Made by a program: the position numbers and the translations under genes. Below, in pieces: positions 683-38,061 of a DNA stretch of 39,257 nt. Position 1 is the stretch's first letter; each line of letters starts with the position of its first letter. Origin of the DNA: Asterionella formosa (lineage: Eukaryota); NCBI GenBank assembly GCA_002256025.1, contig NKIB01014967.1, positions 1 through 39,257 of the forward strand. The letters run 5' to 3'. The notes under the pieces were generated by a model, which was not told where the DNA came from, did not search any database, and saw nothing but the letters and a program-made list of their open reading frames with translations.

Positions 683-727
683 ACTGGTACCAGGTACCAG
701 TAACTGGTACAAGATACCGTATCAACC

Positions 728-13900: not shown

Positions 13901-15870
13901 AGACGGAAGTTCGATATAATCACATTGTTGTAGTTTGCGCTCTGTAGGCAAGCGTATAGCTAGGTATTTATGAAATGCATCCATGTAATGCAAAGGTTAT
14001 TGTGGTATTGGAGATTGGGTTGTAGAGGCCATGGAAGGAACCTGAATTATACTGTTTCGGTGTTGTGTCACATTGTATTCCATGGTCCATCAATTGTTGA
14101 GGTGAAATAAGCGACTGTTCAGAATCACTTCCAAAGTATAGAGCCTCATTAACAGCTAAGATGTAGGTAGTACCATCAGACGCATCATATGCTGTAGCAA
14201 AACGAGCAATGGGGACTCCAGTCAATGTGCCAAGGTCAGAATGAAAACCACCCACATCAACCAAACAGCCACTTAAGTGTAAGACTTGAAATGCTTTTCC
14301 AGCACATTCTGTGTCAGCTCTTGTGTCTATTTCAGCACGATAGCAACTCTCATAGTCATCTGGTTGTTGGGACCGGATTGCTTTAGCAATATAGCGTGTT
14401 CCAGTAGTAATAGTATTTTGTTGACAGGATTGGCCAAATCATAACAAAGTGGGTGGTTGTCCCTCAGGACGCGGTACAGGCGTTGATGGTGTAAGGGGTG
14501 GGAGAAGTGAAACCACTGTTCCATCATCATGTCCATTGATGGCAGCTACTTGTCGGGGAATATTGCCATTTGAGGTATTGTTGTTAGCACCTAGGGAGTT
14601 GTTATTACCTGCTTCGTTCATGACTCGCTGTTATTTGGGAGTTAATTGACTCCAAATATCAGGGCTAACATATAAGCCATCATCTCATTCCCACAACCAC
14701 CACGGCCACAGACAGATGAGCGGCCTCGACCACGTTGTCCATAGGTGTTGCCGCGACCTGACCGAAGTGTAGATCCTATGTTTCTATCAGCTTGACGGCC
14801 ATGACCACTTTGTTGGTTCAACAAGAATGATTGAGAAGGTTTCAGAACATTCCATAAGTTCTGTAGTTTTATTGTTGCTGCTTGTAAATCTGTATTACAT
14901 GTGTCATCATTGACAACAATTGCGGACATTGAATGAATTTGATCTGACTTTAAACCAGCCATAAGGGCGCATACTTGACTGGCCCCATCACATACAATTC
15001 CAATGATATCAAGTTCGGCTTGTGCAATGGTGAGGTGCATGGTGCAGTAGTCAGATAAGGTCCAGTTGTGACGGTCACTGTCCCAATAGGCCTTAGTTAT
15101 ATCTGATTCTGCTTTTTGGATACGTGCATTTCTTGAATTTGTTCCTTCATTAGCAAGGACAAGATTAATCCAAGCAGCTCAACCATTAGTTGTGGATGCA
15201 AACCTGTCAACAAAGGCCTCAGCGGAGCCCCCAGATGTCCGTGAGACAAGGATTTGGTAAAGAGTATAGTTGTCATCATTGAATATATCACCTTCCAAGG
15301 GTGAATGTCTAATGATTGCGTGAGTGTCACCTTCACTATTGTAATCAGTAATGGCATTATCCTGGAGAAGGTATGATAGGGGAACACCATTCCGATTCTT
15401 TGGCATGGCAATAAATGCCATGAACTCATGTTTCTTCTTTCTCCAGGTATCTGGTTTGCCATTCCAACAAGGATCAGGGGCCCTGATATCCTTATTATTA
15501 GATGAGATGTCAGAGTTAGGGTATTTGATATCACCTGCCTTCTTAAGCATGAGTTCCAGTTGCATTAAAGTGAATTAAGAAGAGGAGACATTTCCATATC
15601 CGACTACCAGCTGGCGCTGGCGGATCCAATCCCTAAATGCATATAGCCATGACTGTTTGCCTGCTGATAACTTTGTGGCTGGTGTAAAGCATGACAAAAT
15701 GGTGTTATCATCCAATGGTCCTAGGCTCATAGCTGTATCAATGTCTTCTCCAACCAGGCGGTTCACCTGTTGTTGTGTCAGCTGTAGTATGCCAGTAAGT
15801 GCAGCTTGAAAAGCTTCATGTTCAGGAGGAAAATATCCATCCTATTCCAGTTCTTCAATCGCAATCATGA
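10929..15870 (-). mobile_element. Decayed Ty1/Copia LTR retrotransposon internal region (diatom CoDi-type gag-pol)
   Basis: Order on minus strand: gag (~15870-14640, RNGVPLSYLL), protease RAEIDTRADTECAG (~14340-14300), integrase LITDNAGEE..TEPYSPWQNKAE (13792-13163), RT RKARLVASGH..TYSS..RALYGLKSSG..ILVYVDDIL (12310-11730), RNase H ESSTFGSEFVA..NLADILTK (11424-10929). Many stops and frameshifts. PR-INT-RT-RH order defines Copia. Confidence 0.95.
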
Positions 15871-16949: not shown

Positions 16950-18526
16950 TACTATGAATGTTTTCAGAAGCTCGCTTTTTTGACCTTTTGTGTTTGCACC
17001 TCTTGAAGCAAGCAGGTCAGCAATTAATTCCGATCTGGAAACGTGGACAACCTCCCAAGGATACAAAGAAAAAAAGCAGCGAATTAGTGAGCTGGATGAA
17101 AGGATATTTCCCCATAAAGCAGTTTGGGGCAAATTATTGGACACCTACTACATGGACACAGATGATGATAGATTGGATCCATGGCCTTCAAACACAACCA
17201 GGTTTCAATGCCACAGAATTGATGATAGCTAAATATCCCCTCACTTTTGATATGTTTATAGCAAACAATTGTAAGAGATTATGGACTTTCTAAATGCGCA
17301 TCACAAGATTCGCTGTTTCAAAAAGCAACAGCAAAGTTTCTGGTCGACAAGACAGTTTTGTTCAACAGTGTAAAAATTTATACATTTCCAATTTTTATAA
17401 GTTTATACATGGCTTGAACATTTGAAATCATGTTTAAACATTTCAAATGTCATGCATGCCGGTACACATCCTGAAAGGAAAGATCAAATCAGGCACATAT
17501 GCCGGTACACATCCTGAAAGGAAAGATCAAATCAGGCACATGACAGGAGACACTCCTGAAGTGACGCTACAACACAATCATGATAAAGCTTGCGGCTTAG
17601 AAGGAATGAAAATATGAAGGTGAATTTTATTTCTAGGGCACATGCTAGGATGATCTATTGTTACTCTGACAAAGGCTAAATCATGATTGCTTCCATCTCT
17701 GGCGATTCAATAGATCATTTTGCATTTGGTGGGAAACCATCAATGTCGACAAAATCAAATTGGCAAGTGCTCTTGTTGGATCAATGCACAACTGTTAAAA
17801 CATCATTTACACATGCTTTTTTTAATCTTTCAGGATAATTTATAAACAAAGAGTTTTGTTGTAATTTATAAATGACATTAGTGAAAAGATTTATTGATTT
17901 GTACTTATGCTATATTTGACTGAAACATTATTTTACAGAGTTATACGAAAAGTTCATCGATTTCTGGTAAGTGAAGCATGATAAAAAGGGACTGTAGTGT
18001 TGAGGTTTAAACAAAACATGGCTAACGGGCAATTCTTTCTCATTGTCAGCGTGATTAGTAGGAAATCAAAATGGATTACAAAACAACAGAATAGCGCATG
18101 AGAATCCAAAATCGGATCAAAAGAAAAGGGTTTTCGCAGCAAGCAGCAGTCAGACAAGTTTCAGACTCAGAGTGAAAGCATTGAGACAACAGAAAGGGGA
18201 ACATTTGCCGTTTAACCGCAAAGAAAATAGAACATTAAATTGAAATCCATTTCAACCTAATTTCAACAGTGATTTCTTCGATTAGAATTACAATGATGTT
18301 GAGATATGTATATGATGAAAGAATGTACATAACAGGATAATGTTTTGATAATGACATGGTGTGGTGTTGTTTATTTTAAGTATGCTTAACATGATCATAC
18401 TTATAGTATGAATTTATCATACATAAAACATAAAACGAGAAAAGTATCATGTGGAGAGAAAAATTCTGTGCCAGTTAGCGTTCAATACCTGTGATCTTAT
18501 AAATATCATACTTTTTGTTTGCAGAC
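16950..18526 (+). mobile_element. Unclassified TIR DNA element, copy 1 (one terminus visible; left boundary unresolved)
   Basis: Colinear with the reverse complement of ~26058-27900 at several anchors (17405-17435 vs 27377-27410; 17770-17870 vs 26800-26900; 18460-18526 vs 26058-26125). Similarity stops at tttgcagac (18526). Confidence 0.8.
17456..17541. repeat. Perfect 43-bp tandem duplication
   Basis: atgccggtacacatcctgaaaggaaagatcaaatcaggcacat at 17456-17498 and 17499-17541. Confidence 0.95.
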
Positions 18527-19902
18527 GTGGGTTTAAAGAAGAATAAAACATCTAGGCATACTGCTACCACCACTTGAGAGCAAAAGTTGATTCCTGAAGA
18601 TGGTAGCTTTATTGTTGTAGAGTTGGCATGTACCTTTACTTTGACCAAACAGTATACCAGTATCTAATATAAATATGCAAATTGGTAGAAATGGTGAAGG
18701 CTCCATTTAACAAGCAATTACTTTTTATTGGGTACAAAGTATATTGTATTGAATCTGTATTTTTGCAATATTCTTGGTGGTCTTCCATGTTTGCTTTGAA
18801 CCATTTGCTACAACAACACTGTCGCTTACTTCTTGCTTCCATACATTCTCCTACTGTGTCAATTGGTTCTAAGAAATCCCTGTGAGTTAGATTTCTCTCT
18901 GTGGCATCATGGTCAGGGATTGGGCAGCTCTTTGTTTCCATTGAAAGAGGCAACCTTCAGAGCGTTTCTGGACAAAAGAAAAAGAGAATTTATATATTTT
19001 TGAACTATTGTTGCGGTCCATTGCAGATTGAGACAATCTAAATTCTACTGGGTAGGACGTTTGAGGACGTGTTGAATGGCTGATTTCCTGGCAAGTGGCA
19101 AGCAAGAAGTCATTTTCCACTTTAAATTTGAAAATCCATTGTTGGCTCCTCCTGTTCAAATGTACTTTCACACTGCTGGTCACCAACATTTCGAATGCTG
19201 ATAATCTGAGTGGTGACGTTGAGAGTTATTATTGCTGTAGTAGGTAGTGGTGTCCTGCGGCCCCAATGGCAAGATTTAAAGGTGAGAGCATCAATTTTGG
19301 CTTAGGTGTTCAAAGCTTGTCAACAAGGTATAACTGATAAAATAGTTGGTTTGAAGATTGAATTGGGTTTTGACTTTGACTTGCTTATGTGGTGTTAAGA
19401 ACTTCTTGTTCATTATGTAATTGGTTCTCAATGATATGTGCTGCCCATTCAACATCACTGGTGAATTCAACCCGTTAACACGTTTGTAATTTTTGGTCTG
19501 ATTGGGATAACAGAAAATGTTGGCTGACAAAAAGACAGGTCCTGTTGTACTGTATGGACAAATAAAACCGGAAAAAATTGTGTCCATTTATTTGGGCATG
19601 AGTCCAATTTCAGGATATAGCTTTCATTAACTATTAAATTTAATTGACCATTTTTTGTTTTGGATTGTGGAGAGCTGCAACCTGTTCGGCATCATAAACT
19701 AGATTGTACATTAATGCAATACAGATAGATAACTACGAAGAGCATCAAACAAACCTGATTCATTTTGTAGCTCACCGAAGGGTATTACTTTATTTCGAAT
19801 ATGTTTTTTTATTTGTTCAAAGCATGATCTGCAAAAGGGTCGCCATTGAGCCATCAGAAGTTCATACCAACGCCGTGATTTTTTCTTTCATGGATGGATA
19901 AA

Positions 19903-21435
19903 TTACCTTCCACCACGTCCGCCTGCACGAGCAGATCCTCTAGGATCACTGCCACTGCCACTACTACGTCCATCACGTCCTACTCCTCGACGTGTACCGC
20001 TCCCACGTGCCCCTCCACGCAGAGTTCCATTCTCGCCACTGCTGCGATTGTTGTTGCTGGTATTGTTGGAATTGTTTGTTGAAAAGTTCCGTCCAGCACT
20101 GCCATTACCACCTCCACCACCTCGTGCAGCACGTCTTTGCACATCCATGGTCTTTTGTTCCATATCTAGCACACGACCGTACAATGAAAAGGGTCGTTCT
20201 GAAGATTCCAGGGCTGCCACAACTGGTGCAGATGAATCATAATCCACAAAGGCCAAGCCACGATGGGCCGATACGGTAATGCCCACAACCTTAGTGTAAG
20301 TAGCAGATGCAAACGGTTCAAAGAGATCCCGAATGTCTGCTTCTTTTGCGTTGTCTGGAACATTCTTGATGACCAGGGTGTGGTCAGGGTCTCGTCGATG
20401 ACGGCGCACATGCTCGGTGGCAGACTTGCTGGGAATGGGGTCCATAGCAAGGATCGATGCTTCGGTTTCTTCGAGTACTACAAGAGGAGTGGAAGTTGGT
20501 TCAGCAGGAGGAGCGGGAGGAGTAACAATGACGGGAGGAGCAGGTGCTGGAGCTTGAACTGGTTTGTCGGCAGTACTAGCGACCAAACTAGCCCAAGATC
20601 CAAGCGGAGGCTTTGGGTGTGTAAGAAATTGTTCTGACTTTCCATTTTTCTTTCCTTTGTTTTTTTTCTGCTTGTTTGTGTCTGTCTCCTTTGAATCATC
20701 AATGACCACAACTTCCTCCTTTGTCTCTTCCACAGCTTCTTCAACAAGTGCGTCGTCCTTGGATTCCTCAACTGGTTCTTCGAGTGCTTCTTTGACTGCC
20801 AGTGTTTCGTCTTCTTTTGATTCCTCGATAGCTTCCTCTCCCTTTTGCTCTGATTGATCAACAGCAACGTCGGGTTGGTCAGTTCTCTGATCATCTCCTT
20901 CCGACGTCGTCGTCGCTTCAATAACATGAGCATTGGCATCCAGCACAGCTTCATCGGCACGAACAGGGCTACCAATAGCGGTGTTGACTTGCAAAAACCT
21001 CAAGACGTCATTGTGGACATAATATGATCTTTTTGTACTGTTGGGAGGTGAAAATGGATGGAGGAAAAAGGTATGACAGAAAGGTCGGCAGGTGTGCTCC
21101 CCTAAATACATGTGACCGGTCACAACCAACAAGACGCCGCCATTGATCGACTCCTGTGCGTCAATCGCTCCATTCTCTAATTCGAACCTGACTGGGTCTT
21201 CTGGATTGGTTGCCCACGAAAAGAATCGGTCCTTCAAGTCCTTTGGGTCCTTCAGTGACTCAATCGTGGTGGGCGTGGTAGGGTTGGACCCTTCCCCGTG
21301 CGATAGAACCGACGAGTTGTTGTAGAACTTGTAAATCATGTCTGGAGTGGTCGAAACGACGTGGTAGAAGGCCTTGATGAAGCTCCTTCCAATGGTCAGG
21401 GGAGAGGGGGTGGCAGAAGGAGTGGGCGAGCTCAT
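19903..21435 (-). CDS. G3BP/Rasputin-like RNA-binding protein (NTF2 - acidic - Pro-rich - RRM - RGG)
   Basis: NTF2-like IGRSFIKAFY...IDAQESINGGVLLVVTG...FCHTFFL...YYVHNDVLRF; Glu-rich linker; SWASLV; RRM TLVIKNVP...RGLAFVDY; C-terminal RGG repeats. Confidence 0.92.
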   Translation of the reverse strand: MSSPTPSATPSPLTIGRSFIKAFYHVVSTTPDMIYKFYNNSSVLSHGEGSNPTTPTTIESLKDPKDLKDRFFSWATNPEDPVRFELENGAIDAQESINGGVLLVVTGHMYLGEHTCRPFCHTFFLHPFSPPNSTKRSYYVHNDVLRFLQVNTAIGSPVRADEAVLDANAHVIEATTTSEGDDQRTDQPDVAVDQSEQKGEEAIEESKEDETLAVKEALEEPVEESKDDALVEEAVEETKEEVVVIDDSKETDTNKQKKNKGKKNGKSEQFLTHPKPPLGSWASLVASTADKPVQAPAPAPPVIVTPPAPPAEPTSTPLVVLEETEASILAMDPIPSKSATEHVRRHRRDPDHTLVIKNVPDNAKEADIRDLFEPFASATYTKVVGITVSAHRGLAFVDYDSSAPVVAALESSERPFSLYGRVLDMEQKTMDVQRRAARGGGGGNGSAGRNFSTNNSNNTSNNNRSSGENGTLRGGARGSGTRRGVGRDGRSSGSGSDPRGSARAGGRGGR

Positions 21436-22261
21436 ATTGTCGGAAAAAGGAAGAGAATGGAATAGATTTGCTCTGCTCTGCTCTGTTCTGTTCTGGTTGC
21501 TTTCTCGTTCTTATTGCTCTTTTCCCAGGATGCTTTGTGGTTCAGGTTGTTGCTCGCGCCGTCCGTGAATACCTTAGAGTTTCTGCTAACTACAGCTGTA
21601 CTCGTTCAGCAACTCTACCAAACCACAACCAAAACAAGGGACGGCGCCAAGGCCAATGATCATTGTCAGGTTGGCGTCAACCTTCATGCATTACGTACAC
21701 TTTTACTAGCATGCTACTCGAGTACTCCTACCAGGGACTTGGTACCCTGGTACCTGGTACCGCCTACGAGTATGCACCGGCACCCCGCCAACTATAAGCA
21801 ACCATTCATAGTATATCATACCGGTACCAGTACTGTACCTGGTACTGGAGTGGAGTGCCTGGTAGTACCTGGTAGTATCGTAGAGGCACAAGAGTGGGCA
21901 AGGGAAGGGGACAGACGAACAGAGCACTTTGCTGGCTGTGGTCATGATGTCCACATGTCACATCGTGTTTTGGAATTTAATGCACAGCCATCATGTAGTA
22001 TGATTCTGCCACTTTAGGATTCCAGATTCGACTCGTGATCGATCAATTCATTTGCGACCGGCACTGCTACCACGTACACGCTTCCTGGTACCAGTATAAC
22101 CAACCGCATGCAGTCATTCTATGTATTCCGAGTGCTGGTAACTGGCACTTACAATTTACGTTTGTTTTTATATAGCAAAGCAAACATGTTATTCTGCGTT
22201 CAAGGGGTGCGTCACGGCATTTCCAAAATATTCAAATATTCTCAAAAGGTCATCGCAGTTT

Positions 22262-22358: not shown

Positions 22359-22991
22359 AGGTATCTAAATATTTAGGTACTGGCACCTGGTGCACCCACC
22401 CCGGTACCATGGTACGGGTCTTTGTTTCTATGTACTGGTCCGTACCAGGAACTGCCTACGTAGTTGAGGATGACCGAGCGATGTTCGCTCGCACGACCAT
22501 TTGATGACCAGCCTTCTTCTGTTGCCGTTGGGAATCAAGAAGGTCAAAAAAGAACAAATTATTATCCACCGTCCCCGTGCGTGGGCTTGTGTGATTTGAT
22601 TTCAAGACTGCGGCAGTTTGCCTTTGATTTCATATATAAACCGGAGTGGTACGTTGGAGTGTAACGGTTACCATAGTAAAAAAATAGTATAAAATAAAAT
22701 CTAGCAAAAATACCGTCTTTCTGGCAGCTAATAGTATTGATACAAAGTGAAATAAAAATAATTATTCTGATTCTTTTATGCAAGGAGGAATACAGGATAC
22801 CGGTACGATGACGACACGTTTCAATACATAAACATCCTGATGTGTTCTACGCCGCCGGCCTACATAAATGCCTGTATGTATTCTAGCAAAAGCAATCCCA
22901 AGAAAACACGACATCACCCCCAAACGCAAACAAGAATTTGATTCTCTCATTTTCACGCTCGCTGCACCCTCCGCCTCAGTTTCTCCATACC

Positions 22992-23579
22992 ATGGAGATT
23001 CTTGGTGAAGAGGCAAACTCCCACAGCACGTCTCCTCGCACACACTCCTGGCTGTTGATCCTTGCGTTGTCCCTTGTCAGTCTCCACTTGTTCTACCTCT
23101 TAACTGTTGTCCTCTATTCTGGTTTACAATTCCTGTTGGTCTGGAATGAGATTTTCCGGATGCAGCGGCCGAAGGCCCTGCAAACGGAGTTGGTGACTCA
23201 GATCTATCATCATACGCTGTCTGTGGAACTTCCATCATGTCCCATTTGTCTTTTGGACTACAGTACGTATAACAGTGACGACCTCAATAAGCTGTCAACA
23301 AGACGAACAATGTACGTCCCACACTCACGCATTCCCGCTCACACAGATCAAGGTGATGTCATTAGCCACGGCAGACACTGCCATCATATATTTCATAATG
23401 AATGTCTGACACTATGGCTTCAAAAACAACCATCGTGTCCGTGTTGTCGACTTGCCATTTCGGAGCCTCCTCCAGGTTGTACAGAAGAAGAAATGCAGGA
23501 AGATGATTATGTCCCTGACCCGGCAGAAAGGATTTGGGTGTACATTAAGTGGTCCATGGCACTATGTGGCATGAGCTAA
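22992..23579 (+). CDS. TM-anchored RING-H2 (ATL-like) E3 ubiquitin ligase; predicted intron 23263-23346
   Basis: Hydrophobic segment WLLILALSLVSLHLFYLLTVVLYSGL; CPICLLDY...CHHIFHNECL..WL....SCPCCR. Removing GTACGT...ctcac...acacAG restores normal RING spacing (LDYNQGDVISHGRHCHH). Confidence 0.85.
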   Translation: MEILGEEANSHSTSPRTHSWLLILALSLVSLHLFYLLTVVLYSGLQFLLVWNEIFRMQRPKALQTELVTQIYHHTLSVELPSCPICLLDYSTYNSDDLNKLSTRRTMYVPHSRIPAHTDQGDVISHGRHCHHIFHNECLTLWLQKQPSCPCCRLAISEPPPGCTEEEMQEDDYVPDPAERIWVYIKWSMALCGMS

Positions 23580-24803
23580 CATTTTGATATCTAGCTATCC
23601 AGGTGCTATTACGCAAGCAAACGCATGCTGCACACACATTCGACGGTTTCTTCTCCATATTGTTTACAATGCATTTCATTTACATGAACTCATTCTCAAT
23701 CCAAACGCATTACACACATTCAAACCTCCACCCACCTGCAACATTTCATATATACTACAAATACTGTATAAGATAATAATTAACAGGCCCTTGTTTAAGG
23801 TTGTGGCCCTGGCTTAACCCTAGTTTGGAGAACACCTTTGCTAGGGTTGTTAAAATGGCATTGGAACAAGGAGTTTGCTACTATGAATTCCCATGATTCA
23901 AGTGTCCATTTGAATATATGAGTTTAATAGGAATCAGTGCCAGATTGATAGAGTTCCATTTTAAACAAACAAAAATGATTTTTAAACATCTTTTTTATAT
24001 CTATGTAATACTCCGCTGATTGACATTTTTACATGCACTACTATGCCAAGGCAATGACTAAAGGATTTGCATGGCTGTGTGGGGGTGTCCAGTATATGTT
24101 ATTTTGGAACCTAGCTACACTCAACAAAATGGAAAGAAAATTCCTAGGTGGAAACTTCGATCTTGCCAAGCTGTCTTCTTGCTTGGGTTGTCCCCTAAAT
24201 GCACGTCTACAGTCCATTTGGTGCTAAATCCTGCAACCAGTCATCACATTTTGCCTCAATTTTACGTCATCTTTGACAATCCCTTCTCAACCAAACAAGT
24301 TCGATGCATAATATGCTGGAAAGTTTGGATCTATGTCAGCAATTTAGTGCTTGTAGTATTCCACTCTACCTGATCTTCTCAATGATCAAGATGGATGAAG
24401 CAAAGGAATCCAATCTCAATTCTTTGGCATTTGCACTTCGCGATAAACATCTGATTTATCCTCTCCCATAATCAACTTCTTGCTTTATTGCATCCAAGTC
24501 GGATCTAGATACATTGATGTATCATGAGGCAATAAAGGCAATGATGGCAGAAGATAAGGAAGCATTCATTGAAGCAATGCAAATCGAAATTATTGGGGGG
24601 CTTGAGGAACATAAAACGTGGACACTGGTACCACCTCATACAACTGCAACCTCTTCCAATAGAAAGTATTACCAACTACATAGACCTTCAAGTGCAAGCG
24701 GTAACCCAATGGGTGTACACGAAAATATAAGACACGTGTCTGTGTGCGTGGTGATAAGCAAGTAATGGGAATTGACATATAAAAGACATATGCTCCCATG
24801 GTA

Positions 24804-25053
24804 GGGAATGGCTTAGTGGCTAGCACACATGCCTGTTGTGGTGGTGGCAGGTTTGATTCTTGCATTCTCCACCTTTCTTTTTCATTTAGTCCCTAGTGTT
24901 CCAGGGGGTGCAGCTCATGAAAAGACAGGTCATGTTGTACAGTACAGACGAATAAAACCCGTACTAATTATGTCCATTCATTCATCTATTTGGGCACGAG
25001 TGCGATCATTGGATAGCTTTAATGTACTGTAAGATTTGATTGACAATTTTTCG
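24804..25053 (+). mobile_element. tRNA-derived SINE-like insertion (250 bp) with a 15-bp target-site duplication
   Basis: Flanked by tatgctcccatggta (24789-24803) and tatgctctcgtggta (25054-25068). The 5' 70 nt are tRNA-like with Pol III A and B boxes. Excision restores the Copia RT reading frame. Confidence 0.8.
24809..24860 (+). promoter_or_regulatory. RNA polymerase III type-2 internal promoter (A and B boxes) of the tRNA-like head
   Basis: A box TGGCTTAGTGG (24809-24819; consensus TRGCNNARYGG). B box GGTTTGATTCT (24850-24860; two transitions from GGTTCGATTCC) within the T stem gcagg/cttgc. Confidence 0.7.
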
Positions 25054-26057
25054 TATGCTCTCGTGGTACAGTGATTGTCTGTCTGCATCTGCTGTACTCT
25101 TTCAACTATGCTGAAGCTCACGTCCCAACAATTTGACTATGTAAACGCTTTTGTTCAAGCTTAAGTCAAGCAACCAACTTTTGTTGAACTACCGCCCCAC
25201 TAGTAAGGGATTCGAAACATCCAACTCCAATTCTGTGCTTCAGCTGAATAAGAATTTATATGGAAGTAGGGACGCCCCCCCCCTGCATAGTTTGAGGTAC
25301 TCATGGCTTCTCTATTTTTTCGTGGTTTTATTGCAAGTCAAATCGACCCATACCTCTTCATTCATCCTGAAATTATTTTCCTCGTTCTCGTTGATGATTC
25401 AATCTAGCTGGAAAAAGATATCTCGAAAATAGATTCAATGATTGCTAATTTGGGCAAGGAGTTTGAGCTAACAATGGAAGAAGACATTACCATTTTTCTT
25501 CTTGGTATTCTAATTGATGAGTCAGAGTATGGATCCCTGTTCCAAACTTGAACAGGATTGATTGATCGAATCCTTAGGACTTGCTCTACGCAGGATTGAA
25601 ATGCAAGGGATACTCCCCAGCAAGCTCAATTGCTCTTGGAATGACCTACTTGGCGAAACCTTTGTTCAAGATTTCAGCTACCCATCTGCTGTTGGAATTC
25701 TTCTCTATCTCTTTCACTGTACATTAGTGCCCACATTTCACAAACTCGCCTAAAGTGTCCCATGATGGTGAAGCCATCTGGAGAATCTGCCGTTACCTAA
25801 AGCAAGAAGACAAGGGGACTTCTACACAAGGACCAATATTGTGACCTACCAAGAAACTCAATCTGGATACATATGTTGATGAGGACTATGCTGGTTTGTG
25901 GAGAGGCAAAGATGACGACCAAGACCCACCAATAGTATGTGTTAAGTCGCATAGAGGTTTTGTCATTTCTTTATCAAACTGCGGAAAACTTTCCCCTCAT
26001 CATATCATAATGACAATCCAAACTACAGGTATCATATAATAAGAATGACAATACAAT

Positions 26058-29000
26058 GACTGCAAATAAAAACTATCATGCATATAGGATTAAGGGTATT
26101 GTACGCTAAGTGGCACAGGATTTTTATGTTTATGATAGTTTTTGGATCAAAAATATGATCAGTGTATCATATAATAATGATCATGCTTTACCGAGCTTGA
26201 AGTATGATGATACTATCATAGTTATGATACCATTGCATCATATAATAAGTTAAACATGGGCCTATGATGTGTATACTCTTGTCATACAACTATCTTAACA
26301 TGATCGTAATTCTCATCGATATCACTGTCTAAAATAGGATGAAATGGATCGAAATTTAGAACTATATTTAAGAATGGTTCTATGTTTCTATATCTTGAGT
26401 GGCTACAGAATGTTCAACAATGCTCTCATCGCAATGATTGGTGCTTCAGCTTTCACTTCCACCTTCCCCCCGCCCAATCCAATTCTGAAGGTTGTTGTAG
26501 TAGTACTGGTTGTCTTGCCCTTGTTCCCCTGCTTTCCTTTTACTCCTGAAGGATCTGAGTTTGCATTCACGCATTTTTCCACTACTATTTAATCCGTTTC
26601 GTTGTACCAATCAGCCATACTAACAAAGAGAAGCAATTCATTGTTAGCTGTTCATGTTTTGCTACACAACAGCATGCATATCATTTCTATCTTCACTTAC
26701 CACAAATTGATGAAGTAACTGATGCATATTTCTGTAAAATAATGTGTCAGTTGAAGATTGCATAAGAAAGTACTATCAATCAATAAATGGGCCCCAACGC
26801 TGCTGTTTATAACTTATAAATACTGTTTGTTTACCATTATCCTGAAAGAAGCAACACACATGTGTCAGTTATTCTAAAAGTTGTGGATTAATCCAAAGAT
26901 GATACCATTTACCGATTTCTTTTGTCCACAATGATGATTGGCCAGCCACCAAATCGAAAAGGAGCTATTGAATCACTGAAAGGGGACGAGTCATTCCGTA
27001 TTTGTAATCCCAACAAGCAATTGATCATCCTGGCATGATTTGCTCTTGACATGCCATAACACAAAGCACAGCTTGTTGATTCCGCCCTTCTCCATAATAT
27101 TCAATCCGTCTTAGCCACATGGTGTATCATTGTGTTGTATTGTCACTTCAGTTTTTCGCATCTTGTGTTCTTGCTTGAGATCCTTAATTTCAGGAAGTGT
27201 ATGCATGACAAGAAACATGACAGGCATTTGCTCTTGACTTACCATCAATTAAATCCACCCTTCTCTTCTAAGCCGCAAGTATCATTGTGTTGCATTATCA
27301 ATTTCGTTTTCCACGTCATCATGTGTGATAATCCTTCATTTCAGGAGCAAAGTGTATGCATGACAAGGAACATGAAAACATGATTTCAAATGTTTCAGCC
27401 ATGAATACATATATATAAAGATTTGTAAGTCCAAATGTATATGTATTTGAACATTTGCATAGTTTTAAACACGCTCATAATACGGCACATCCTGTGTATG
27501 CAAACATCAATTTTGATTATACATAATTCAAATATACACAATGCATGATGAGTTCATAGTTTTCCACGACCTGTTGAATTTTTTCAATTTGTTTTGTGTC
27601 AATTCTTGTACCTACAAGTCAGTGGCTGATTTCATTAAGCCCATTAATAATCGGGAGTCATCACCAATTTTTCAAATAATCTAAATCATACATTTATGAA
27701 TATAGACATATTGACCATATACATTCGAAAACTTCATATGGCCTACCGGTAGTAGTACTGTATATTTGCTGGGTATAACTTCTATCATGGGAGTACCACA
27801 ATAGTCCAGCGGAAAACTGAATATGCTCATGTGTTCAGGATCATTTGATCATATTTCTAAGATCAATTAATCTTAATTCCTGAAAATAAATTTTGATCTT
27901 TCATTGTCTCATCAGACACCGTTTATCATATGATCAAAGCTATAGGATAAAAGAATCAAACTTTATTGATTAAAGATCATACTTTATACCGAAATAGTTG
28001 CTCATGCATGCAACCCATTCCCCCGTACTATATATGGTATGGAAGAAAACCTCAACCCCGATTTTGCTCACATGCTCCACCCATCAACTTCTTCATTGAT
28101 GAAATCAAGGTAGCTATATTGACGTCAGGTGGTGCAGGCTTGTGTATAGATTGATGATACCAAAAGCATTGCTTCCTTTTCCCATTGGTACCTATTTGTC
28201 AATAGCAGCAATTTTCCCTTTACCTATCCTTCCAAGAAGAACCTTTATTTCTCTTTCACAATTGTCCTGATGTTTGCAGAGCATTTTTACTTCTCTTTCG
28301 ATTTTTCCACTGGTTTCAATTCCTTTGGCATTCAAGTCAAGAGACAAGCAACTCATTGAGATTTCTACNNNNNNNNNNNNNNNNNNNNNNNNNNNNNNNN
28401 NNNNNNNNNNNNNNNNNNNNNNNNNNNNNNNNNNNNNNNNNNNNNNNNNNNNNNNNNNNNNNNNNNNNNNNNNNNNNNNNNNNNNNNNNNNNNNNNNNNN
28501 NNNNNNNNNNNNNNNNNNNNNNNNNNNNNNNNNNNNNNNNNNNNNNNNNNNNNNNNNNNNNNNNNNNNNNNNNNNNNNNNNNNNNNNNNNNNNNNNNNNN
28601 NNNNNNNNNNNNNNNNNNNNNNNNNNNNNNNNNNNNNNNNNNNNNNNNNNNNNNNNNNNNNNNNNNNNNNNNNNNNNNNNNNNNNNNNNNNNNNNNNNNN
28701 NNNNNNNNNNNNNNNNNNNNNNNNNNNNNNNNNNNNNNNNNNNNNNNNNNNNNNNNNNNNNNNNNNNNNNNNNNNNNNNNNNNNNNNNNNNNNNNNNNNN
28801 NNNNNNNNNNNNNNNNNNNNNNNNNNNNNNNNNNNNNNNNNNNNNNNNNNNNNNNNNNNNNNNNNNNNNNNNNNNNNNNNNNNNNNNNNNNNNNNNNNNN
28901 NNNNNNNNNNNNNNNNNNNNNNNNNNNNNNNNNNNNNNNNNNNNNNNNNNNNNNNNNNNNNNNNNNNNNNNNNNNNNNNNNNNNNNNNNNNNNNNNNNNN

Positions 29001-29685
29001 NNNNNNNNNNNNNNNNNNNNNNNNNNNNNNNNNNNNNNNNNNNNNNNNNNNNNNNNNNNNNNNNNNNNNNNNNNNNNNNNNNNNNNCTGCATTTCAATTC
29101 TAGATGTATCATGTTCTCGTTAGAGAGACGATGTAACATAGAAGTAGATTGTGCTGTTCTATAATGGATGTTGTTTAGCTAGCGATGATTGAGGATGTAA
29201 CTCTGATTGAAACTCCGGTGACAGACTGGAAATATTCGTCTTGTGTGATGATCCAAGTCGTTTTCATTGGATTTCCTTTAAGCTCTTAACGGATTGCATC
29301 CAAACATCAAACATACTGTGCACTGTAGATGATTATTCATCGAAGACATATGATGACTTGAACGACAAATGAAGATTTCATCACAAACACTCTTTCCTCT
29401 CAACATGGCTGCTTTGTTGTTGTTGCAAGAATCAGAGTGAGGACTGGCAAGGATGATGAGCCAAACCACACTACTTTAACTGGTACATTATCCTTTCAAG
29501 AAACTTAAATAAAGGAACCTAAAAGAAACAATACATATAATAATTAAATATACATAGTCAAAAGGGTTACTATTTAAATTACAATGGCATTTCTAAAAAT
29601 AATTAGATGATATAACGAAAAATTATGATCAGATGATCATAATCCTATGATGCATCATAGGAATATGATGGATTTTTTTGCAGAC
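26058..29685 (-). mobile_element. Unclassified TIR DNA element, copy 2 (~3.6 kb including a gap), inserted in the Copia RNase H
   Basis: Ends gactgcaaataaaaactatcatgcatataggatta and taatcctatgatgcatcatag...tttttttgcagac are imperfect inverted repeats. TATCAT/ATGATC-rich subterminal tracts. Copia coding resumes immediately to the right. Confidence 0.8.
28369..29086. other. Assembly gap (N run)
   Basis: Run of n. Confidence 1.
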
Positions 29686-30691: not shown

Positions 30692-31095
30692 AACCCAAAT
30701 TGGCCTGCCGGTAGTACTTGTACCTAAACGTGTAAGTCAACGACTGCATCATGTACCAGCACTACAAGTTTACCGGGTTCTAGTGTCAGCATTGATTTCT
30801 GATGATGTTGTGGTCCCACAGCTCGCGCTTGAATACACCGGCATGTGCTGTTCCTCCTCATATCATCATCATGCAAAGAAATACTGATAATCCTCTGTCA
30901 ACCGAATCAGCCAACGACCTCTTCCTTATATTGTACGCATACCGGTACGGAGTACCTGGTACCAGGTACTGTAGATCAATTCTTTTCACCTCGTTGACCC
31001 ATATTTGTATTTGCTTTGTACATAGCAGCGCCTATACTTCAAGAATTATACTCTTTTCTGTCTAGAACTACACAGTTCTTTAGACTACTACTCGC

Positions 31096-31470
31096 ATGAT
31101 TCGATCCAGCCAAATCCCCGACGTCCTCCGTCGCATCTGCGGCGACGGCATCCATTCCGCCGCACTGGTCACCGGTGACGGCGAACTGTTGGGTACCTCC
31201 TTGCGTCATCCGTCGGAATCTCTTGCCAATCAATCTACTCTCATTGCTGAAATCGCTTCTGATTACGTTCGATTGGCATCCGAATTGCGTCAGCGTTCCT
31301 TGCTATTCGTATGCTTGGAGTTGGATCAAGGCATGGTAGCCATAGCTACGGCAGGCCCTGACTTTGTCATGGCAATTTGTGAATCCGGAACACCATTAGG
31401 ACTATTGCAAGGAAAAGTTATGGCATGTGCATTACATGTACAAGAGGCATTGACACCCATGGTGGTTTGA
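31096..31470 (+). CDS. Roadblock/LC7-domain protein, LAMTOR2-like (Ragulator subunit)
   Basis: 124 aa: MIRSSQIPDVLRRI..GIHSAALVTGDGELLG...STLIAEIASDY...VCLELDQGMVAI...LGLLQGK...LHVQEAL matches the LAMTOR2 pattern. Confidence 0.75.
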   Translation: MIRSSQIPDVLRRICGDGIHSAALVTGDGELLGTSLRHPSESLANQSTLIAEIASDYVRLASELRQRSLLFVCLELDQGMVAIATAGPDFVMAICESGTPLGLLQGKVMACALHVQEALTPMVV

Positions 31471-31769: not shown

Positions 31770-32421
31770 NNNNNNNNNNNNNNNNNNNNNNNNNNNNNNN
31801 NNNNNNNNNNNNNNNNNNNNNNNNNNNNNNNNNNNNNNNNNNNNNNNNNNNNNNNNNNNNNNNNNNNNNNNNNNNNNNNNNNNNNNNNNNNNNNNNNNNN
31901 NNNNNNNNNNNNNNNNNNNNNNNNNNNNNNNNNNNNNNNNNNNNNNNNNNNNNNNNNNNNNNNNNNNNNNNNNNNNNNNNNNNNNNNNNNNNNNNNNNNN
32001 NNNNNNNNNNNNNNNNNNNNNNNNNNNNNNNNNNNNNNNNNNNNNNNNNNNNNNNNNNNNNNNNNNNNNNNNNNNNNNNNNNNNNNNNNNNNNNNNNNNN
32101 NNNNNNNNNNNNNNNNNNNNNNNNNNNNNNNNNNNNNNNNNNNNNNNNNNNNNNNNNNNNNNNNNNNNNNNNNNNNNNNNNNNNNNNNNNNNNNNNNNNN
32201 NNNNNNNNNNNNNNNNNNNNNNNNNNNNNNNNNNNNNNNNNNNNNNNNNNNNNNNNNNNNNNNNNNNNNNNNNNNNNNNNNNNNNNNNNNNNNNNNNNNN
32301 NNNNNNNNNNNNNNNNNNNNNNNNNNNNNNNNNNNNNNNNNNNNNNNNNNNNNNNNNNNNNNNNNNNNNNNNNNNNNNNNNNNNNNNNNNNNNNNNNNNN
32401 NNNNNNNNNNNNNNNNNNNNN
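31770..32421. other. Assembly gap (N run)
   Basis: Run of n. Confidence 1.
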
Positions 32422-32433
32422 NGAGTTGGTTGA

Positions 32434-34053
32434 ATGATGAGTGTGAGAGTACCGGTAGTAGCAACAACAAGAACGGCAGCGAAAACAACAAGAAAGTCAC
32501 TAGTGACAGTCTGCTGCTTTCTATTGCTACAGCAGCAACAATCATTAATCCATACGACGTTTGCCTTTGTGCCAACGAGCAGCCGCCCTCGACAAGGCGG
32601 AGCATTCAGAGTACAAGCCAAGAGAAACCAACATGATGAAATCATCATCGCATGGAGCAACAATGGTCAGTTACTATTGAAACAAGCATGCAAAGGCCTG
32701 GCGGTATCTATTGTAATGCTTGGTGCCTTATTACTGATTCATCCAGATGACAGTAATTCACGTCAGCACCAGTTCTCTGCCTTTGCGCAAGACACTGCAC
32801 CTACCGTTTTGGTAGAAACGTCCAAGGAACCTTCTCTACTAGGCAGTACGATGATGTCAAACTCACCAAGTGTCGTTGATGAAGTATGGACACTTGTCAA
32901 CAAGTATTACATCGACAGGACCTTTCATGGACAAGATTGGGACCGTATCCATGACAAGTACGCGGCATTAGAAAAGAGCAGCAGCAGCAACGGCCAATCA
33001 TCATCGCTAGACCTGGTCACTGAAATGGTGAAAACACTCGGTGACAAGTATTCTCGAGTGTTAGACCCATCTCAGTATACGTCAATACAAAAGTATGACT
33101 TGATTGGAGTTGGGGCGACTCTCATGCCCAACGAGCAGAAAGAAATTATTGTTGGGGCGCCACCCATTGCTGGATCTGCATCAGATAAAGCAGGATTGAA
33201 AGCTGGAGATTTCATCGAGGCGATCAATGGAATATCTACAGAAGGACGGACGGCATTTGATATTATTGATCAAATATCAGAACAGCCCAACGCCAAGACA
33301 GTGGCCATGACGGTGCGGAGCAAAGATGGTACTGTCACACAAGAAATGATCATGGAACGACAATTTCTTAAAGTGAGAAATCCGGTGAGTTATCAAATTA
33401 CCGAACGACGCAAGGATGGGACGGTCGTGGGGTTCATTCGGATAGCAGAATTCAATTCATTGGTCAAGGCTCGATTGGAGGATGCGATTACATCGTTGGA
33501 AAAGGAAGGAGCAAATGCATTTGTCTTGGATCTGAGAGGCAATCCAGGAGGAGCTTTTCAAAGTGCTGTGGAGATTTCTAGTCTTTTTGTGGAGGATCGA
33601 GTTGCCACGTACGTGGTGGACAGCAATCAAGTACAACTTCCCTTCAGGACTGCTGGTGGACGTGTGATACTACCAGAAGGAAATCCAATGGCCATTTGGG
33701 TTGATGGAGGGTCAGCGTCGGCATCTGAAGTGCTTACAGGAAGTTTGCATGATAACTGCAGAGCAGTCGTCATGGGAGAAAAGTCATTTGGCAAGGGTCT
33801 CATCCAAGCTGTGTATGGGTTGAAGAATGGTGCTGGGCTGGTATTGACTGTAGCCAAGTACGTGACTCCAAATGGGACGGAAATTCAAGGAATTGGTATC
33901 ACTCCCGACATCAAGGGAGGTGTCCCATTTCAACCAATTATCGGGCTCTTACCAGACACCTCCAAGGTGGACTTTGGAGACATTTCTAAGCGACTAAGTC
34001 CAGCGATGTGCAAGGTTCCTTTCCAACACCCGGAGATGAAAAGTATGAATTAA
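32434..34053 (+). CDS. ctpA: C-terminal processing peptidase (S41A, CtpA-like), plastid/thylakoid-lumen targeted
   Basis: EVWTLVNKYYIDRTFHGQDW, LGDKYSR, PDZ (GVGATL..AGLKAGDFIEAING), VLDLRGNPGG, catalytic Ser in SASASEV and Lys in SFGKGLIQ. N-terminal TFA-FVP (ASAFAP-like) and a second hydrophobic segment ending SAFA-Q. Confidence 0.93.
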   Translation: MMSVRVPVVATTRTAAKTTRKSLVTVCCFLLLQQQQSLIHTTFAFVPTSSRPRQGGAFRVQAKRNQHDEIIIAWSNNGQLLLKQACKGLAVSIVMLGALLLIHPDDSNSRQHQFSAFAQDTAPTVLVETSKEPSLLGSTMMSNSPSVVDEVWTLVNKYYIDRTFHGQDWDRIHDKYAALEKSSSSNGQSSSLDLVTEMVKTLGDKYSRVLDPSQYTSIQKYDLIGVGATLMPNEQKEIIVGAPPIAGSASDKAGLKAGDFIEAINGISTEGRTAFDIIDQISEQPNAKTVAMTVRSKDGTVTQEMIMERQFLKVRNPVSYQITERRKDGTVVGFIRIAEFNSLVKARLEDAITSLEKEGANAFVLDLRGNPGGAFQSAVEISSLFVEDRVATYVVDSNQVQLPFRTAGGRVILPEGNPMAIWVDGGSASASEVLTGSLHDNCRAVVMGEKSFGKGLIQAVYGLKNGAGLVLTVAKYVTPNGTEIQGIGITPDIKGGVPFQPIIGLLPDTSKVDFGDISKRLSPAMCKVPFQHPEMKSMN

Positions 34054-34940: not shown

Positions 34941-35432
34941 GCCACATTTTGCTGAATGAATAGAAGGAAATGTTGCCCAGATATGAGATGGTGTTAAATG
35001 AGTCACTAGTTTTGGCTATGATATTGCTAACCAAGAAGATGACCAAGAAGATGGAATCCAACTTTATGTGGAACTCTATAAATTTTAAGGTTAATCCAGC
35101 AAAAATGATTATGAAACGAAGAAAGCAACCGCTATGTATAATCTTTTTAGCCCAAAATGGGATGATGTATATATTATGGGTAACAATACCTGGTGACCTG
35201 GAAAAAGAATGGGAACAAACTAAAATAATCGCTTCTACAAACAACATATGCAAATATACTACATGACGTGTTTGTCATAGGCAACATAAAGGATGAAGGA
35301 AAAATCAAATACCGGTAATATGCACAGCAAACGTGCTCAATGTGAGATAGCCACAAACAAGGCATTGAAATACCGGCACCAGTACCGATACCTAGAAATG
35401 TCACTTATTATTGCTACCTTTGTATTTCCTTT

Positions 35433-37558: not shown

Positions 37559-37612
37559 TGAGATGGCACTGGGTGTTCAATACATCTGCTGTTGTGTCGC
37601 AATGATGATATA

Positions 37613-38061
37613 NNNNNNNNNNNNNNNNNNNNNNNNNNNNNNNNNNNNNNNNNNNNNNNNNNNNNNNNNNNNNNNNNNNNNNNNNNNNNNNNNNNNNNNN
37701 NNNNNNNNNNNNNNNNNNNNNNNNNNNNNNNNNNNNNNNNNNNNNNNNNNNNNNNNNNNNNNNNNNNNNNNNNNNNNNNNNNNNNNNNNNNNNNNNNNNN
37801 NNNNNNNNNNNNNNNNNNNNNNNNNNNNNNNNNNNNNNNNNNNNNNNNNNNNNNNNNNNNNNNNNNNNNNNNNNNNNNNNNNNNNNNNNNNNNNNNNNNN
37901 NNNNNNNNNNNNNNNNNNNNNNNNNNNNNNNNNNNNNNNNNNNNNNNNNNNNNNNNNNNNNNNNNNNNNNNNNNNNNNNNNNNNNNNNNNNNNNNNNNNN
38001 NNNNNNNNNNNNNNNNNNNNNNNNNNNNNNNNNNNNNNNNNNNNNNNNNNNNNNNNNNNNN
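37613..38061. other. Assembly gap (N run)
   Basis: Run of n. Confidence 1.

What the first reader, a model, noticed from the sequence alone, without database searches (positions are those of the whole stretch)
24789..25068. tRNA-headed SINE-like retroposon with a clean 15-bp TSD nested in a Copia RT
Seen: a 250-bp insert (24804-25053) between direct repeats matching at 13/15. Each repeat differs by one transition from tatgctcccgtggta (YAPVV), and removal yields KTYAPMVQ*LSVC..TLSTMLKLTSQQFDYVNAFVQA, a continuous RT motif. The head folds as a degenerate cloverleaf: gggaat/attctc acceptor, A box TGGCTTAGTGG, caca/tgtg anticodon stem, gcagg/cttgc T stem, ending CATTCTCCACC (similar to tRNA-Ala ends). 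About 180 bp of unrelated body follows, ending gatttgattgacaatttttcg with no poly(A). Established: a tRNA head, unrelated body and long TSD define SINEs mobilised by LINE target-primed reverse transcription. Inference: to my knowledge SINEs are barely documented in diatoms, so this may be a new family. Caveat: a T5 run right after the head could terminate Pol III.
Basis: partly seen in the sequence, partly recalled or inferred. Interest (0 to 1): 0.8.

Follow-up and report, generated by a model that had tools for sequence, protein, structure and literature searches.

The report
tRNA-headed SINE family in a diatom
A 248-250 bp mobile element with a tRNA-like front end has jumped into a dead Copia retrotransposon of a freshwater diatom, and it belongs to a family with many copies, so it is a real SINE in a group where such elements are barely described.

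Summary

- **Repeat and host:** A 13/15 direct repeat (24789-24803 / 25054-25068) brackets the insert. It may extend to 17 bp. The two flanks match adjacent residues, 874 and 875, of an intact Copia polyprotein.
- **Head:** 24803-24873 aligns end to end with the Rfam tRNA model but scores only 12.8 bits. ARAGORN calls it only at relaxed thresholds, so it is a decayed tRNA derivative with A and B boxes, not a tRNA gene.
- **Family:** Contigs from three DNA runs and one RNA run were laid on the locus (297, 1674, 115 and 21 contigs). Most are diverged copies confined to the insert. Two begin exactly at 24804, and many stop at 25049-25051 before running into unrelated flanks.
- **Second copy:** A 5'-truncated copy lies at 19523-19655.
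- **Host organism:** A diatom, by protein hits.
- **Not shown:** the partner LINE, Pol III transcription, and TSDs of other copies. No genome was held, and collection scans found nothing.
- **Open point:** A T5 run directly after the head remains unexplained.
- **Literature:** The diatom papers I read report SINEs only as repeat-annotation classes.

Verdict: new member of a known kind; moderate interest.

The parts
24787..24803 (.). 5' copy of the target-site duplication. The core is 15 bp (24789-24803). It may be 17 bp with the two bases before it.
   Evidence: 13/15. (3 of 2000 shuffles reach the score). Extension read. It encodes YAPMV of the host RT, where the sister Copia has YAPVV.
24804..24873 (+). 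tRNA-derived head, a degenerate cloverleaf. The acceptor is 24804-24809 paired with 24864-24869. The T arm is 24847-24863.
   Evidence: Rfam tRNA model positions 1-71 align to 24803-24871 at 12.8 bits. ARAGORN at -ps90 calls 24803-24873. Two diverged contigs begin alignment exactly at 24804 (table 8, records 3 and 9).
24809..24819 (+). A-box-like motif TGGCTTAGTGG, the putative 5' half of an internal Pol III promoter.
   Evidence: Read. It aligns to the D-arm of the Rfam tRNA model. That this motif is the Pol III A box is recalled knowledge.
24850..24860 (+). B-box-like motif GGTTTGATTCT. Most family members have C at 24854, which gives GGTTCGATTCT.
   Evidence: In one search table 3, C at 24854 appears in 28, 68, 15 and 2 contigs of the four runs and carries most of the depth. 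With C there, ARAGORN calls the head at -ps95.
24878..24882 (+). T5 run directly behind the head. It could act as a Pol III terminator, and its role is unexplained.
   Evidence: Read. No variant at these places is among the listed rows table 3, but 62 rows were not shown.
24874..24990 (+). Body with no tRNA likeness. This copy has small insertions or deletions relative to most family members near 24976-24990.
   Evidence: diverged contigs tile head-to-body and body-to-tail (records 4, 10, 13, 14). Loose ends before 24983-24991 have consensus that resembles the body. Eight contigs skip 55-125 nt between 24828-24901 and 24904-25008.
24991..25051 (+). Most conserved 3' tail, ending in a T5 run (25047-25051). 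There is no poly(A).
   Evidence: highest summed depth at 25012-25047. Loose ends behind 25049, 25050 and 25051 have low-agreement consensus (0.43-0.53), which indicates unrelated flanks. The same 3' end is seen in copy 2.
25052..25068 (.). 3' copy of the target-site duplication. The core is 25054-25068.
   Evidence: The right flank resumes at residue 875 of the sister Copia directly after it.
24484..24803 (+). Host: decayed Copia pol, from upstream of RT to RT motif ...TYAPMV. It has stop codons and a frameshift.
   Evidence: RVT_2 positions 13-59. (P0121 residues 773-828 and 842-874).
25069..25617 (+). Host: continuation of the decayed Copia RT.
   Evidence: RVT_2 positions 80-242. (P0121 residues 875-1053, 50% identity, E 1e-41 pairwise).
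19523..19655 (+). Second family copy. It is 5'-truncated, has no head, and matches insert positions about 110-248 at about 74% identity with the same 3' end.
   Evidence: (nhmmer E 3.3e-14). A possible degenerate flanking direct repeat lies at 19490-19531 / 19652-19698 (10 of 2000 shuffles).

Best explanation
The insert (24804 to about 25051) is one old copy of a tRNA-derived SINE family of a diatom. The proposed mechanism has three steps.

1. An RNA is made from the element, most likely by RNA polymerase III. The promoter would be the A and B boxes in the tRNA-like head, and termination would be at the terminal T run. This step is inferred.
2. The RNA is copied into DNA at a nicked chromosomal site by the reverse transcriptase and endonuclease of an autonomous non-LTR (LINE) element, that is, target-primed reverse transcription. 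This is inferred from the 15-17 bp target duplication, the 5'-truncated copy, and the excess of 3' ends.
3. Staggered nicks about 15-17 bp apart are filled in, which gives the flanking duplication. The duplication itself is shown.

This copy landed in the RT region of a Copia element. Both have since decayed. The target duplications differ by 2-3 transitions, and the copy is mostly under 95% alike to other family members.
For: - **Discrete insertion:** A 13/15 (possibly 14/17) direct repeat abuts the insert. The flanks align to residues ...874 and 875... of an intact Copia polyprotein.
- **Family:** With contigs of four runs laid at >=80% likeness, 297, 1674, 115 and 21 contigs were laid. By identity band (>=99 / 95-99 / 90-95 / <90) the counts are 3/17/141/136, 16/168/919/571, 2/4/49/60 and 1/0/8/12. 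At 25007, 74, 112, 44 and 9 distinct contigs carry the majority base. At 24875 the counts are 42, 93, 21 and 4.
- **Depth:** Summed contig depth inside the insert is tens to hundreds of times that of the flanks. The tool warns that this is not a copy number.
- **Ends:** Two diverged contigs start exactly at 24804. Loose ends behind 25049-25051 have unrelated consensus.
- **Same architecture in other copies:** Diverged contigs tile head-body and body-tail. Loose ends before 24843 have a tRNA D-arm-like consensus in all four runs.
- **Head:** The Rfam tRNA model aligns full length at 24803-24871. ARAGORN at -ps90 makes its only call in the window at 24803-24873, within one base of the insert start. 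The family majority restores the canonical C in the B box.
- **5' truncation:** Copy 2 at 19523-19655 lacks the head and shares the 3' end. Tail depth is at least head depth in all three DNA runs.
- **No terminal inverted repeat**.
- **Independent population:** A contig of a different study bridges the whole filled site (X7 record 27, 24670-25280).
Against: - The tRNA likeness is below every standard threshold: ARAGORN default gives nothing, and Rfam gives 12.8 bits against a gathering score of 29. ARAGORN at -ps90 also fires 4 times in 10 shuffled windows, so the head call is convincing only through its position.
- A T5 run (24878-24882) directly follows the head and could stop Pol III before the body.
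- The element has no poly(A) and no simple-repeat tail.
- No LINE was found. Pfam found no non-LTR RT or endonuclease in the window ORFs scanned (15, 28), and the tail could not be compared with any LINE.
- TSDs were seen for this copy only, plus a weak candidate for copy 2.
- The runs are metagenomes, so some laid contigs may come from related organisms.
- Contigs cannot show RNA starts, ends or strand, so transcription is not shown.
- No empty allele was seen in the four runs.
Confidence: 0.8

Rival explanations
1. The repeat is a composite of a tRNA pseudogene with its own T-run terminator plus an unrelated dispersed repeat, for example the 3' end of a LINE or a 3'-UTR repeat. It would be spread by Pol II read-through transcripts or as part of a longer element, not as a Pol III-driven SINE.
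For: - A T5 run sits directly behind the head.
- Depth has two separate peaks, the head plus T5 and the tail, with a lower middle.
- An 849-nt RNA contig of high depth carries only the tail (24987-25051) near its 3' end (X18 record 7).
- Copy 2 has the body and tail but no head.
Against: - Diverged contigs link head to body and body to tail. Eight deletion forms join head-side to tail-side sequence.
- The family's 5' end at 24804 coincides with the start of the tRNA-like fold and with the TSD. This is expected if the transcript starts at the tRNA-like unit.
- The lower middle is partly explained by small insertions or deletions in this copy. The loose-end consensus before 24983-24991 resembles the body.
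Confidence: 0.1
2. [quoted passage not shown] Copia elements are present in this window.
For: - Helenus LTRs carry tRNA-like A and B boxes (PMC10886601, abstract and passages read).
- The window holds two Copia-like elements.
- No LINE was seen in the window.
Against: - Helenus makes 4-5 bp TSDs, whereas the duplication here is 15-17 bp.
- The ends do not read TG...CA.
- There is no second LTR, PBS or PPT next to it.
- The 5'-truncated copy with an intact 3' end does not fit integrase insertion.
- The words diatom and stramenopile do not occur in that paper.
Confidence: 0.03
3. It is a non-autonomous DNA transposon (MITE-like), or filler DNA captured at a double-strand break.
For: It is short, non-coding and has many copies. 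MITEs are reported in a diatom (PMC5859163, passages read).
Against: - No terminal inverted repeat was found between the insert ends.
- A 15-17 bp duplication is longer than transposase TSDs (established knowledge, recalled).
- The many copies with shared ends rule out one-off filler.
Confidence: 0.03

Closest known systems
tRNA-derived SINEs (SINE2/tRNA class) mobilised by LINEs
   Same: - Short and non-coding.
- tRNA-like head with A and B boxes at the 5' end, followed by an unrelated body and a conserved tail.
- Many dispersed, diverged copies with shared ends.
- A long (15-17 bp) target duplication and a 5'-truncated copy.
   Different: - It ends in a T5 run, not poly(A) or a simple repeat.
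- A conserved-looking T5 lies directly behind the head.
- The partner LINE is unknown.
- The host is a diatom. In the papers read, diatom SINEs appear only as repeat-annotation classes, without sequence anatomy.
- Repbase, Dfam and SINEBase could not be searched here.
infSINE families of the oomycete Phytophthora infestans (the nearest stramenopile SINEs found in the literature search)
   Same: Non-autonomous SINEs in a stramenopile, with an internal RNA polymerase III promoter and low to moderate copy number. For example, infSINEm has 32 copies (PMC3429519, passages read).
   Different: No sequence comparison was possible because no infSINE sequence was at hand. The host lineage and habitat differ. 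The number of matching contigs here is much larger.
Putative SINEs annotated in Phaeodactylum tricornutum, Cyclotella cryptica, Skeletonema costatum and Pleurosigma pacificum
   Same: SINE-class repeats reported in diatom genomes: PMC5859163 (13 putative copies, 1,454 bp), PMC7466962, PMC8147415 and PMC12803021. Passages were read.
   Different: The passages read give counts, genome share or GC content and no head, tail or TSD anatomy. The supplementary tables were not opened. Relatedness to this family is untested.
Helenus (TRIMs with tRNA-like sequence in the LTR)
   Same: A tRNA-like A/B-box unit at the start of a short repeated retroelement.
   Different: Helenus has paired LTRs with a PBS and PPT and makes 4-5 bp TSDs. 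Here there is a single unit with a 15-17 bp duplication, no TG...CA ends, and a 5'-truncated copy.

Membership tests
SINE (tRNA-derived, LINE-dependent) | Short, non-autonomous element too small to encode RT or endonuclease | tested here: met
   248-250 bp between the duplications. A 71-codon stop-to-stop frame lies inside it but was not scanned against protein families.
SINE (tRNA-derived, LINE-dependent) | 5' head derived from a Pol III-transcribed small RNA, with A and B boxes | tested here: met
   The Rfam tRNA model aligns at positions 1-71 to 24803-24871, but at only 12.8 bits (gathering score 29). ARAGORN calls it only at -ps90 (-ps95 with the family-majority base). A-box- and B-box-like motifs lie at 24809-24819 and 24850-24860. 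The likeness is weak and convinces mainly by its exact position at the 5' end.
SINE (tRNA-derived, LINE-dependent) | Dispersed family of many copies with shared 5' and 3' ends and unrelated flanks | tested here: met
   297, 1674, 115 and 21 contigs were laid. Up to 112 distinct contigs lie at one tail position in one run. Alignments start at 24804 in two diverged contigs. Loose ends behind 25049-25051 have 0.43-0.53 agreement.
SINE (tRNA-derived, LINE-dependent) | Target-site duplications of variable, LINE-like length around individual copies | tested here: inconclusive
   Met for this copy (15-17 bp). Copy 2 has a weak candidate. Other copies could not be read, because no genome was held and collection scans found nothing.
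SINE (tRNA-derived, LINE-dependent) | 5'-truncated copies and an excess of 3' ends, as expected from target-primed reverse transcription | tested here: met
   Copy 2 lacks the first 110 nt or so and keeps the 3' end. Tail depth is at least head depth in the three DNA runs. Depth of contigs is a rough measure.
SINE (tRNA-derived, LINE-dependent) | 3' tail shared with, or recognised by, a partner LINE (or a poly(A) or simple-repeat tail) | not testable with these tools
   There is no poly(A); the element ends in T5. No LINE sequence of this organism was available. No non-LTR RT or endonuclease was found among the window ORFs scanned.
SINE (tRNA-derived, LINE-dependent) | Transcription by RNA polymerase III from the internal promoter | not testable with these tools
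   RNA-run contigs match the element (21 contigs), but contigs show neither start, end nor strand and may include DNA.
Genuine tRNA gene | Passes standard tRNA detection thresholds | tested here: not met
   ARAGORN at default settings finds 0 genes in the window. The Rfam tRNA score is 12.8 bits against a gathering score of 29.
Helenus / TRIM (LTR-type) | 4-6 bp TSD, TG...CA ends, paired LTRs with PBS and PPT | tested here: not met
   The duplication is 15-17 bp. The ends do not read TG...CA. No second unit lies nearby, because the only other copy is 5 kb away and truncated. Helenus features come from PMC10886601.
MITE (DNA transposon derivative) | Terminal inverted repeats and a short TSD of fixed length | tested here: not met
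   The repeat finder reports no inverted repeat pairing the two ends of the insert. The duplication is 15-17 bp.

The most novel reading that the evidence does not exclude
This may be the first anatomically defined, high-copy tRNA-derived SINE family of diatoms, and absent from curated repeat libraries. Its T-run 3' end, its T5 run directly behind the head, and its 15-17 bp duplications would have three implications. Pennate diatoms would harbour an active or recently active LINE machinery that accepts a non-polyadenylated Pol III transcript. Diatom Pol III would read through a T5 run. The insertions could also serve as presence/absence markers for freshwater diatom lineages.
Probability: 0.45. 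Interest if true: 0.55.

Novelty: new member of a known kind. Interest (0 to 1): 0.45.

Why it matters
Papers on diatom genomes cite the view that SINEs are absent from most unicellular eukaryotes. In the passages I read, diatom SINEs are reported only as repeat-annotation classes.

A family with a defined head, body, tail, target duplication and many copies would give diatom genomics a curated SINE. That would improve repeat masking and gene annotation. It would also point to a LINE partner and to Pol III promoter and terminator rules in diatoms, and would offer insertion markers for population and phylogenetic work on freshwater diatoms.

It does not change what is known about how SINEs work.

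Tried and rejected
- **Whole genome:** none is held for this window, so no genome-wide copy census, TSD statistics or LINE search was possible.
- **Collection scans for further copies, all with 0 hits:**
  - Metagenome contigs with a 22-mer of the tail and a 22-mer of the head junction carrying the family-majority base;
  - Genome contigs with the tail 22-mer, a body motif from the loose-end consensus, and the B-box-to-acceptor 24-mer;
  - Viral contigs with the tail 22-mer.
- **Earlier findings of this scan:** nothing on this genome or sequence. One unrelated hit came up by words.
- **Empty allele:** no contig joins 24803 to 25069 in the four runs laid. Contigs drop rare variants, so this says little.
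- **Expression:** 21 contigs of an RNA run match the element, including an 849-nt high-depth contig that carries only the tail. This does not show transcription of the element, its strand or its ends.
- **Parts without cover:** X3 had no cover of the left flank. I draw no conclusion from this.
- **RNA fold of the whole insert:** not more stable than shuffles (z 0.07), so there is no sign of a structured tail.
- **Copia comparison:** tblastn of the second Copia-like element's ORFs against the window at E<=1e-3 found no match to the host element. The host was identified through Pfam and P0121 instead.
- **Protein Atlas look-up of the aldo-keto reductase, for taxon:** uninformative.
- **Parent tRNA:** ARAGORN's relaxed call places CCT at the anticodon, which I do not take as evidence of an Arg origin.
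Full report
**Observation**

The sequence at 24789-25068 is as described. The repeat finder reports the direct repeat 24789-24803 / 25054-25068 at 13 of 15. In 51-nt windows around the two junctions, 3 of 2000 shuffles reach its local alignment score. Read directly, the repeat can include the two preceding bases, giving 24787-24803 / 25052-25068 at 14 of 17. All three differences are transitions, and two are CG in one copy against CA in the other.

**Host element**

The flanks are a decayed Copia pol gene with stop codons and a frameshift.
- Pfam RVT_2 matches the left flank at profile positions 13-59 (E 0.006, 16.6 bits) and the right flank at 80-242 (E 0.0025, 17.9 bits). Each is below the 31.6-bit cut-off, but the two are colinear.
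- A search of the protein collection with the right flank, stops read as X, found two longer proteins at E 2.2e-37 and 1.3e-36. One is a 1307-aa protein carrying the gag_pre-integrase and RVT_2 domains (P0121).
- Pairwise, the left flank aligns to P0121 residues 842-874, ending ...TYAPVV (64% identity). The right flank begins at residue 875 (50% over 183 residues). The region upstream aligns to 773-828 in another frame.

Removing the insert and one repeat copy therefore restores an uninterrupted RT.

**The head**

- ARAGORN at default settings finds no tRNA in the window. Rfam at E<=10 over 701 nt lists no tRNA hit.
- On 96 nt, the Rfam tRNA model aligns over its full length (1-71) to 24803-24871 at 12.8 bits, E 2.6. 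This is far below the gathering score of 29.
- ARAGORN relaxed to 90% of its thresholds calls a 71-nt cloverleaf at 24803-24873, with CCT at the anticodon position. This is its only call in the whole window at that setting. Ten shuffled windows gave 4 calls in total.
- The call alone is therefore not significant. Its start within one base of the insert's 5' end is what carries weight.
- A-box- and B-box-like motifs lie at 24809-24819 and 24850-24860.

**Is it a family?**

No genome is held for the window. Public runs holding the locus are freshwater, lake and algal metagenomes. I laid contigs of three DNA runs from three studies, and of one RNA run, on 24400-25450 at >=80% likeness.
- 297, 1674, 115 and 21 contigs were laid. 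Only 3, 16, 2 and 1 of them are >=99% alike.
- Flank positions are covered by one or two contigs.
- Inside the insert, single positions are covered by many distinct contigs. The majority base at 25007 is carried by 74, 112, 44 and 9 contigs, and at 24875 by 42, 93, 21 and 4.
- Summed depth in the insert is tens to hundreds of times that of the flanks. In X6 the flanks are at about 1,200-1,650, against 265,000-625,000 in head and tail. In X7 the figures are 5.8 against 312-338. The tool states that this is not a copy number, so I read it only as "many copies".

**Family ends and architecture**

- Two diverged contigs (records 3 and 9) begin their alignment exactly at 24804.
- Loose ends behind 25049, 25050 and 25051 have consensus agreement of only 0.43-0.53, meaning unrelated flanks.
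- The family's ends thus coincide with the repeat-delimited insert. The 3' end is the T5 run 25047-25051, not 25053.
- Most members differ from this copy upstream of 24843. Their consensus there is still D-arm-like (agreement 0.67-0.94), and most have C at 24854, which gives a canonical B-box core. With that base, ARAGORN calls the head at 95% thresholds.
- Diverged contigs tile head-to-body and body-to-tail (records 4, 10, 13, 14).
- Eight contigs join head-side to tail-side sequence while skipping 55-125 nt.
- A contig of an independent study bridges the whole filled site (X7 record 27).
- No contig shows an empty site.

**Second copy**

A second copy lies at 19523-19655. It matches insert positions about 110-248 at about 74% identity, has the same 3' end, and has no head (nhmmer E 3.3e-14). 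It may be flanked by a degenerate direct repeat, 19490-19531 / 19652-19698, which 10 of 2000 shuffles reach. I count this as weak.

**Host organism**

The PRPP synthetase ORF (896-2473) has 4377 hits at E<=1e-20. Every organism name among the 120 listed is a diatom. Raphid pennates such as Seminavis, Cylindrotheca, Fistulifera, Mayamaea and Nitzschia match at about 49-53% identity with high coverage. The best hits are unnamed, at 74-79%. The host is therefore a diatom with no close named genome in that collection.

**Mechanism**

These features together fit a SINE inserted by target-primed reverse transcription:
- a tRNA-like head at the exact 5' end;
- an unrelated body and a conserved tail;
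- many diverged copies with shared ends;
- a 15-17 bp duplication;
- a 5'-truncated copy;
- tail depth at least equal to head depth;
- no terminal inverted repeat.

The duplication, the family and the truncation are shown. Pol III transcription and LINE dependence are inferred from established knowledge of SINEs.

Open points:
- There is no poly(A).
- A T5 run (24878-24882) directly behind the head could terminate Pol III.
- No LINE was seen. Pfam found none among the 15 and 28 window ORFs scanned.
- The whole-insert fold is no more stable than shuffles (z 0.07).

**Rivals**

- *Helenus-type LTR unit.* Passages of PMC10886601 describe a tRNA-like sequence in LTRs and 4-5 bp TSDs. This fails on TSD length, end sequence, and the truncated copy.
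- *MITE.* This fails on the absence of inverted ends.
- *One-off filler.* This fails on copy number.
- *Composite reading.* A tRNA pseudogene with its terminator joined to another repeat and not driven by Pol III cannot be fully excluded. An 849-nt high-depth RNA contig carries only the tail.

**Literature**

- Passages read in PMC5859163 list 13 "putative SINE" copies in P. tricornutum, called the first in a diatom.
- PMC7466962 reports SINEs in C. cryptica by repeat annotation. [quoted passage not shown]
- PMC8147415 says SINEs had been reported only in two further diatoms.
- PMC12803021 gives only the GC content of a SINE class.
- Full-text searches listed no paper describing the anatomy of a diatom SINE family. 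In one search, none of the 15 listed papers holds the word diatom.
- The nearest stramenopile SINEs found are the infSINE families of Phytophthora infestans (PMC3429519, passages read).
- Repbase, Dfam, SINEBase and the papers' supplements were not searched, so prior description there cannot be excluded.

**Searches that found nothing**

Scans of metagenome, prokaryote-genome and viral contig collections for four short motifs of the family all returned 0 loci. The scan's earlier findings held nothing relevant.

**Verdict**

It is a new member of a known kind in a poorly sampled lineage. Interest is moderate.

Noticed in passing
window 10957-15574 (- strand): A second, better preserved Copia-like element with long open frames. 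One ORF (11960-12376) matches RVT_2 at E 8e-10. It shows no tblastn match at E<=1e-3 to the decayed host element at 24.5-25.6 kb.
   Followed up: partly
window 17392-17976 and 26691-27419; 27124-27220 and 27279-27375: Blastn finds diverged (70-77%) inverted matches between about 17.4-18.0 kb and about 26.7-27.4 kb. It also finds a tandem-like pair at 27124-27220 / 27279-27375. These may be LTR or other repeat remnants next to the host Copia.
   Followed up: no
window 19523-19655 relative to ORF 19903-21510 (-): The truncated SINE copy lies about 250-380 nt beyond the stop codon of an NTF2 + RRM (G3BP-like) gene (Pfam), in the opposite orientation. It may therefore sit in or just behind that gene's 3' UTR.
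   Followed up: no
run X18 record 7 (matches window 24987-25051): An 849-nt RNA-run contig of high depth (2115) carries only the SINE tail, at its positions 768-832, with 10 mismatches. It could be the 3' end of the partner LINE or an mRNA with a tail fragment. Its sequence could not be read.
   Followed up: no
window 24787-24803 vs 25052-25068: Two of the three differences between the duplicated target copies are CG versus CA. This would fit deamination of methylated CpG in a silenced transposon, which is an inference only.
   Followed up: no
window 28369-29086, 31770-32422, 37613-38061: Three runs of N (718, 653 and 449 bases) interrupt the window.
   Followed up: no
window 704-2476, 22887-23579, 31084-31467, 32434-34053, 35346-36530, 36563-37576: Long intron-free ORFs typical of a compact algal genome:
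- PRPP synthetase;
- a RING-finger protein;
- a Roadblock/LC7 domain;
- an S41 peptidase with PDZ, and an EXPERA/EBP-family membrane protein;
- an aldo-keto reductase.
   Followed up: partly
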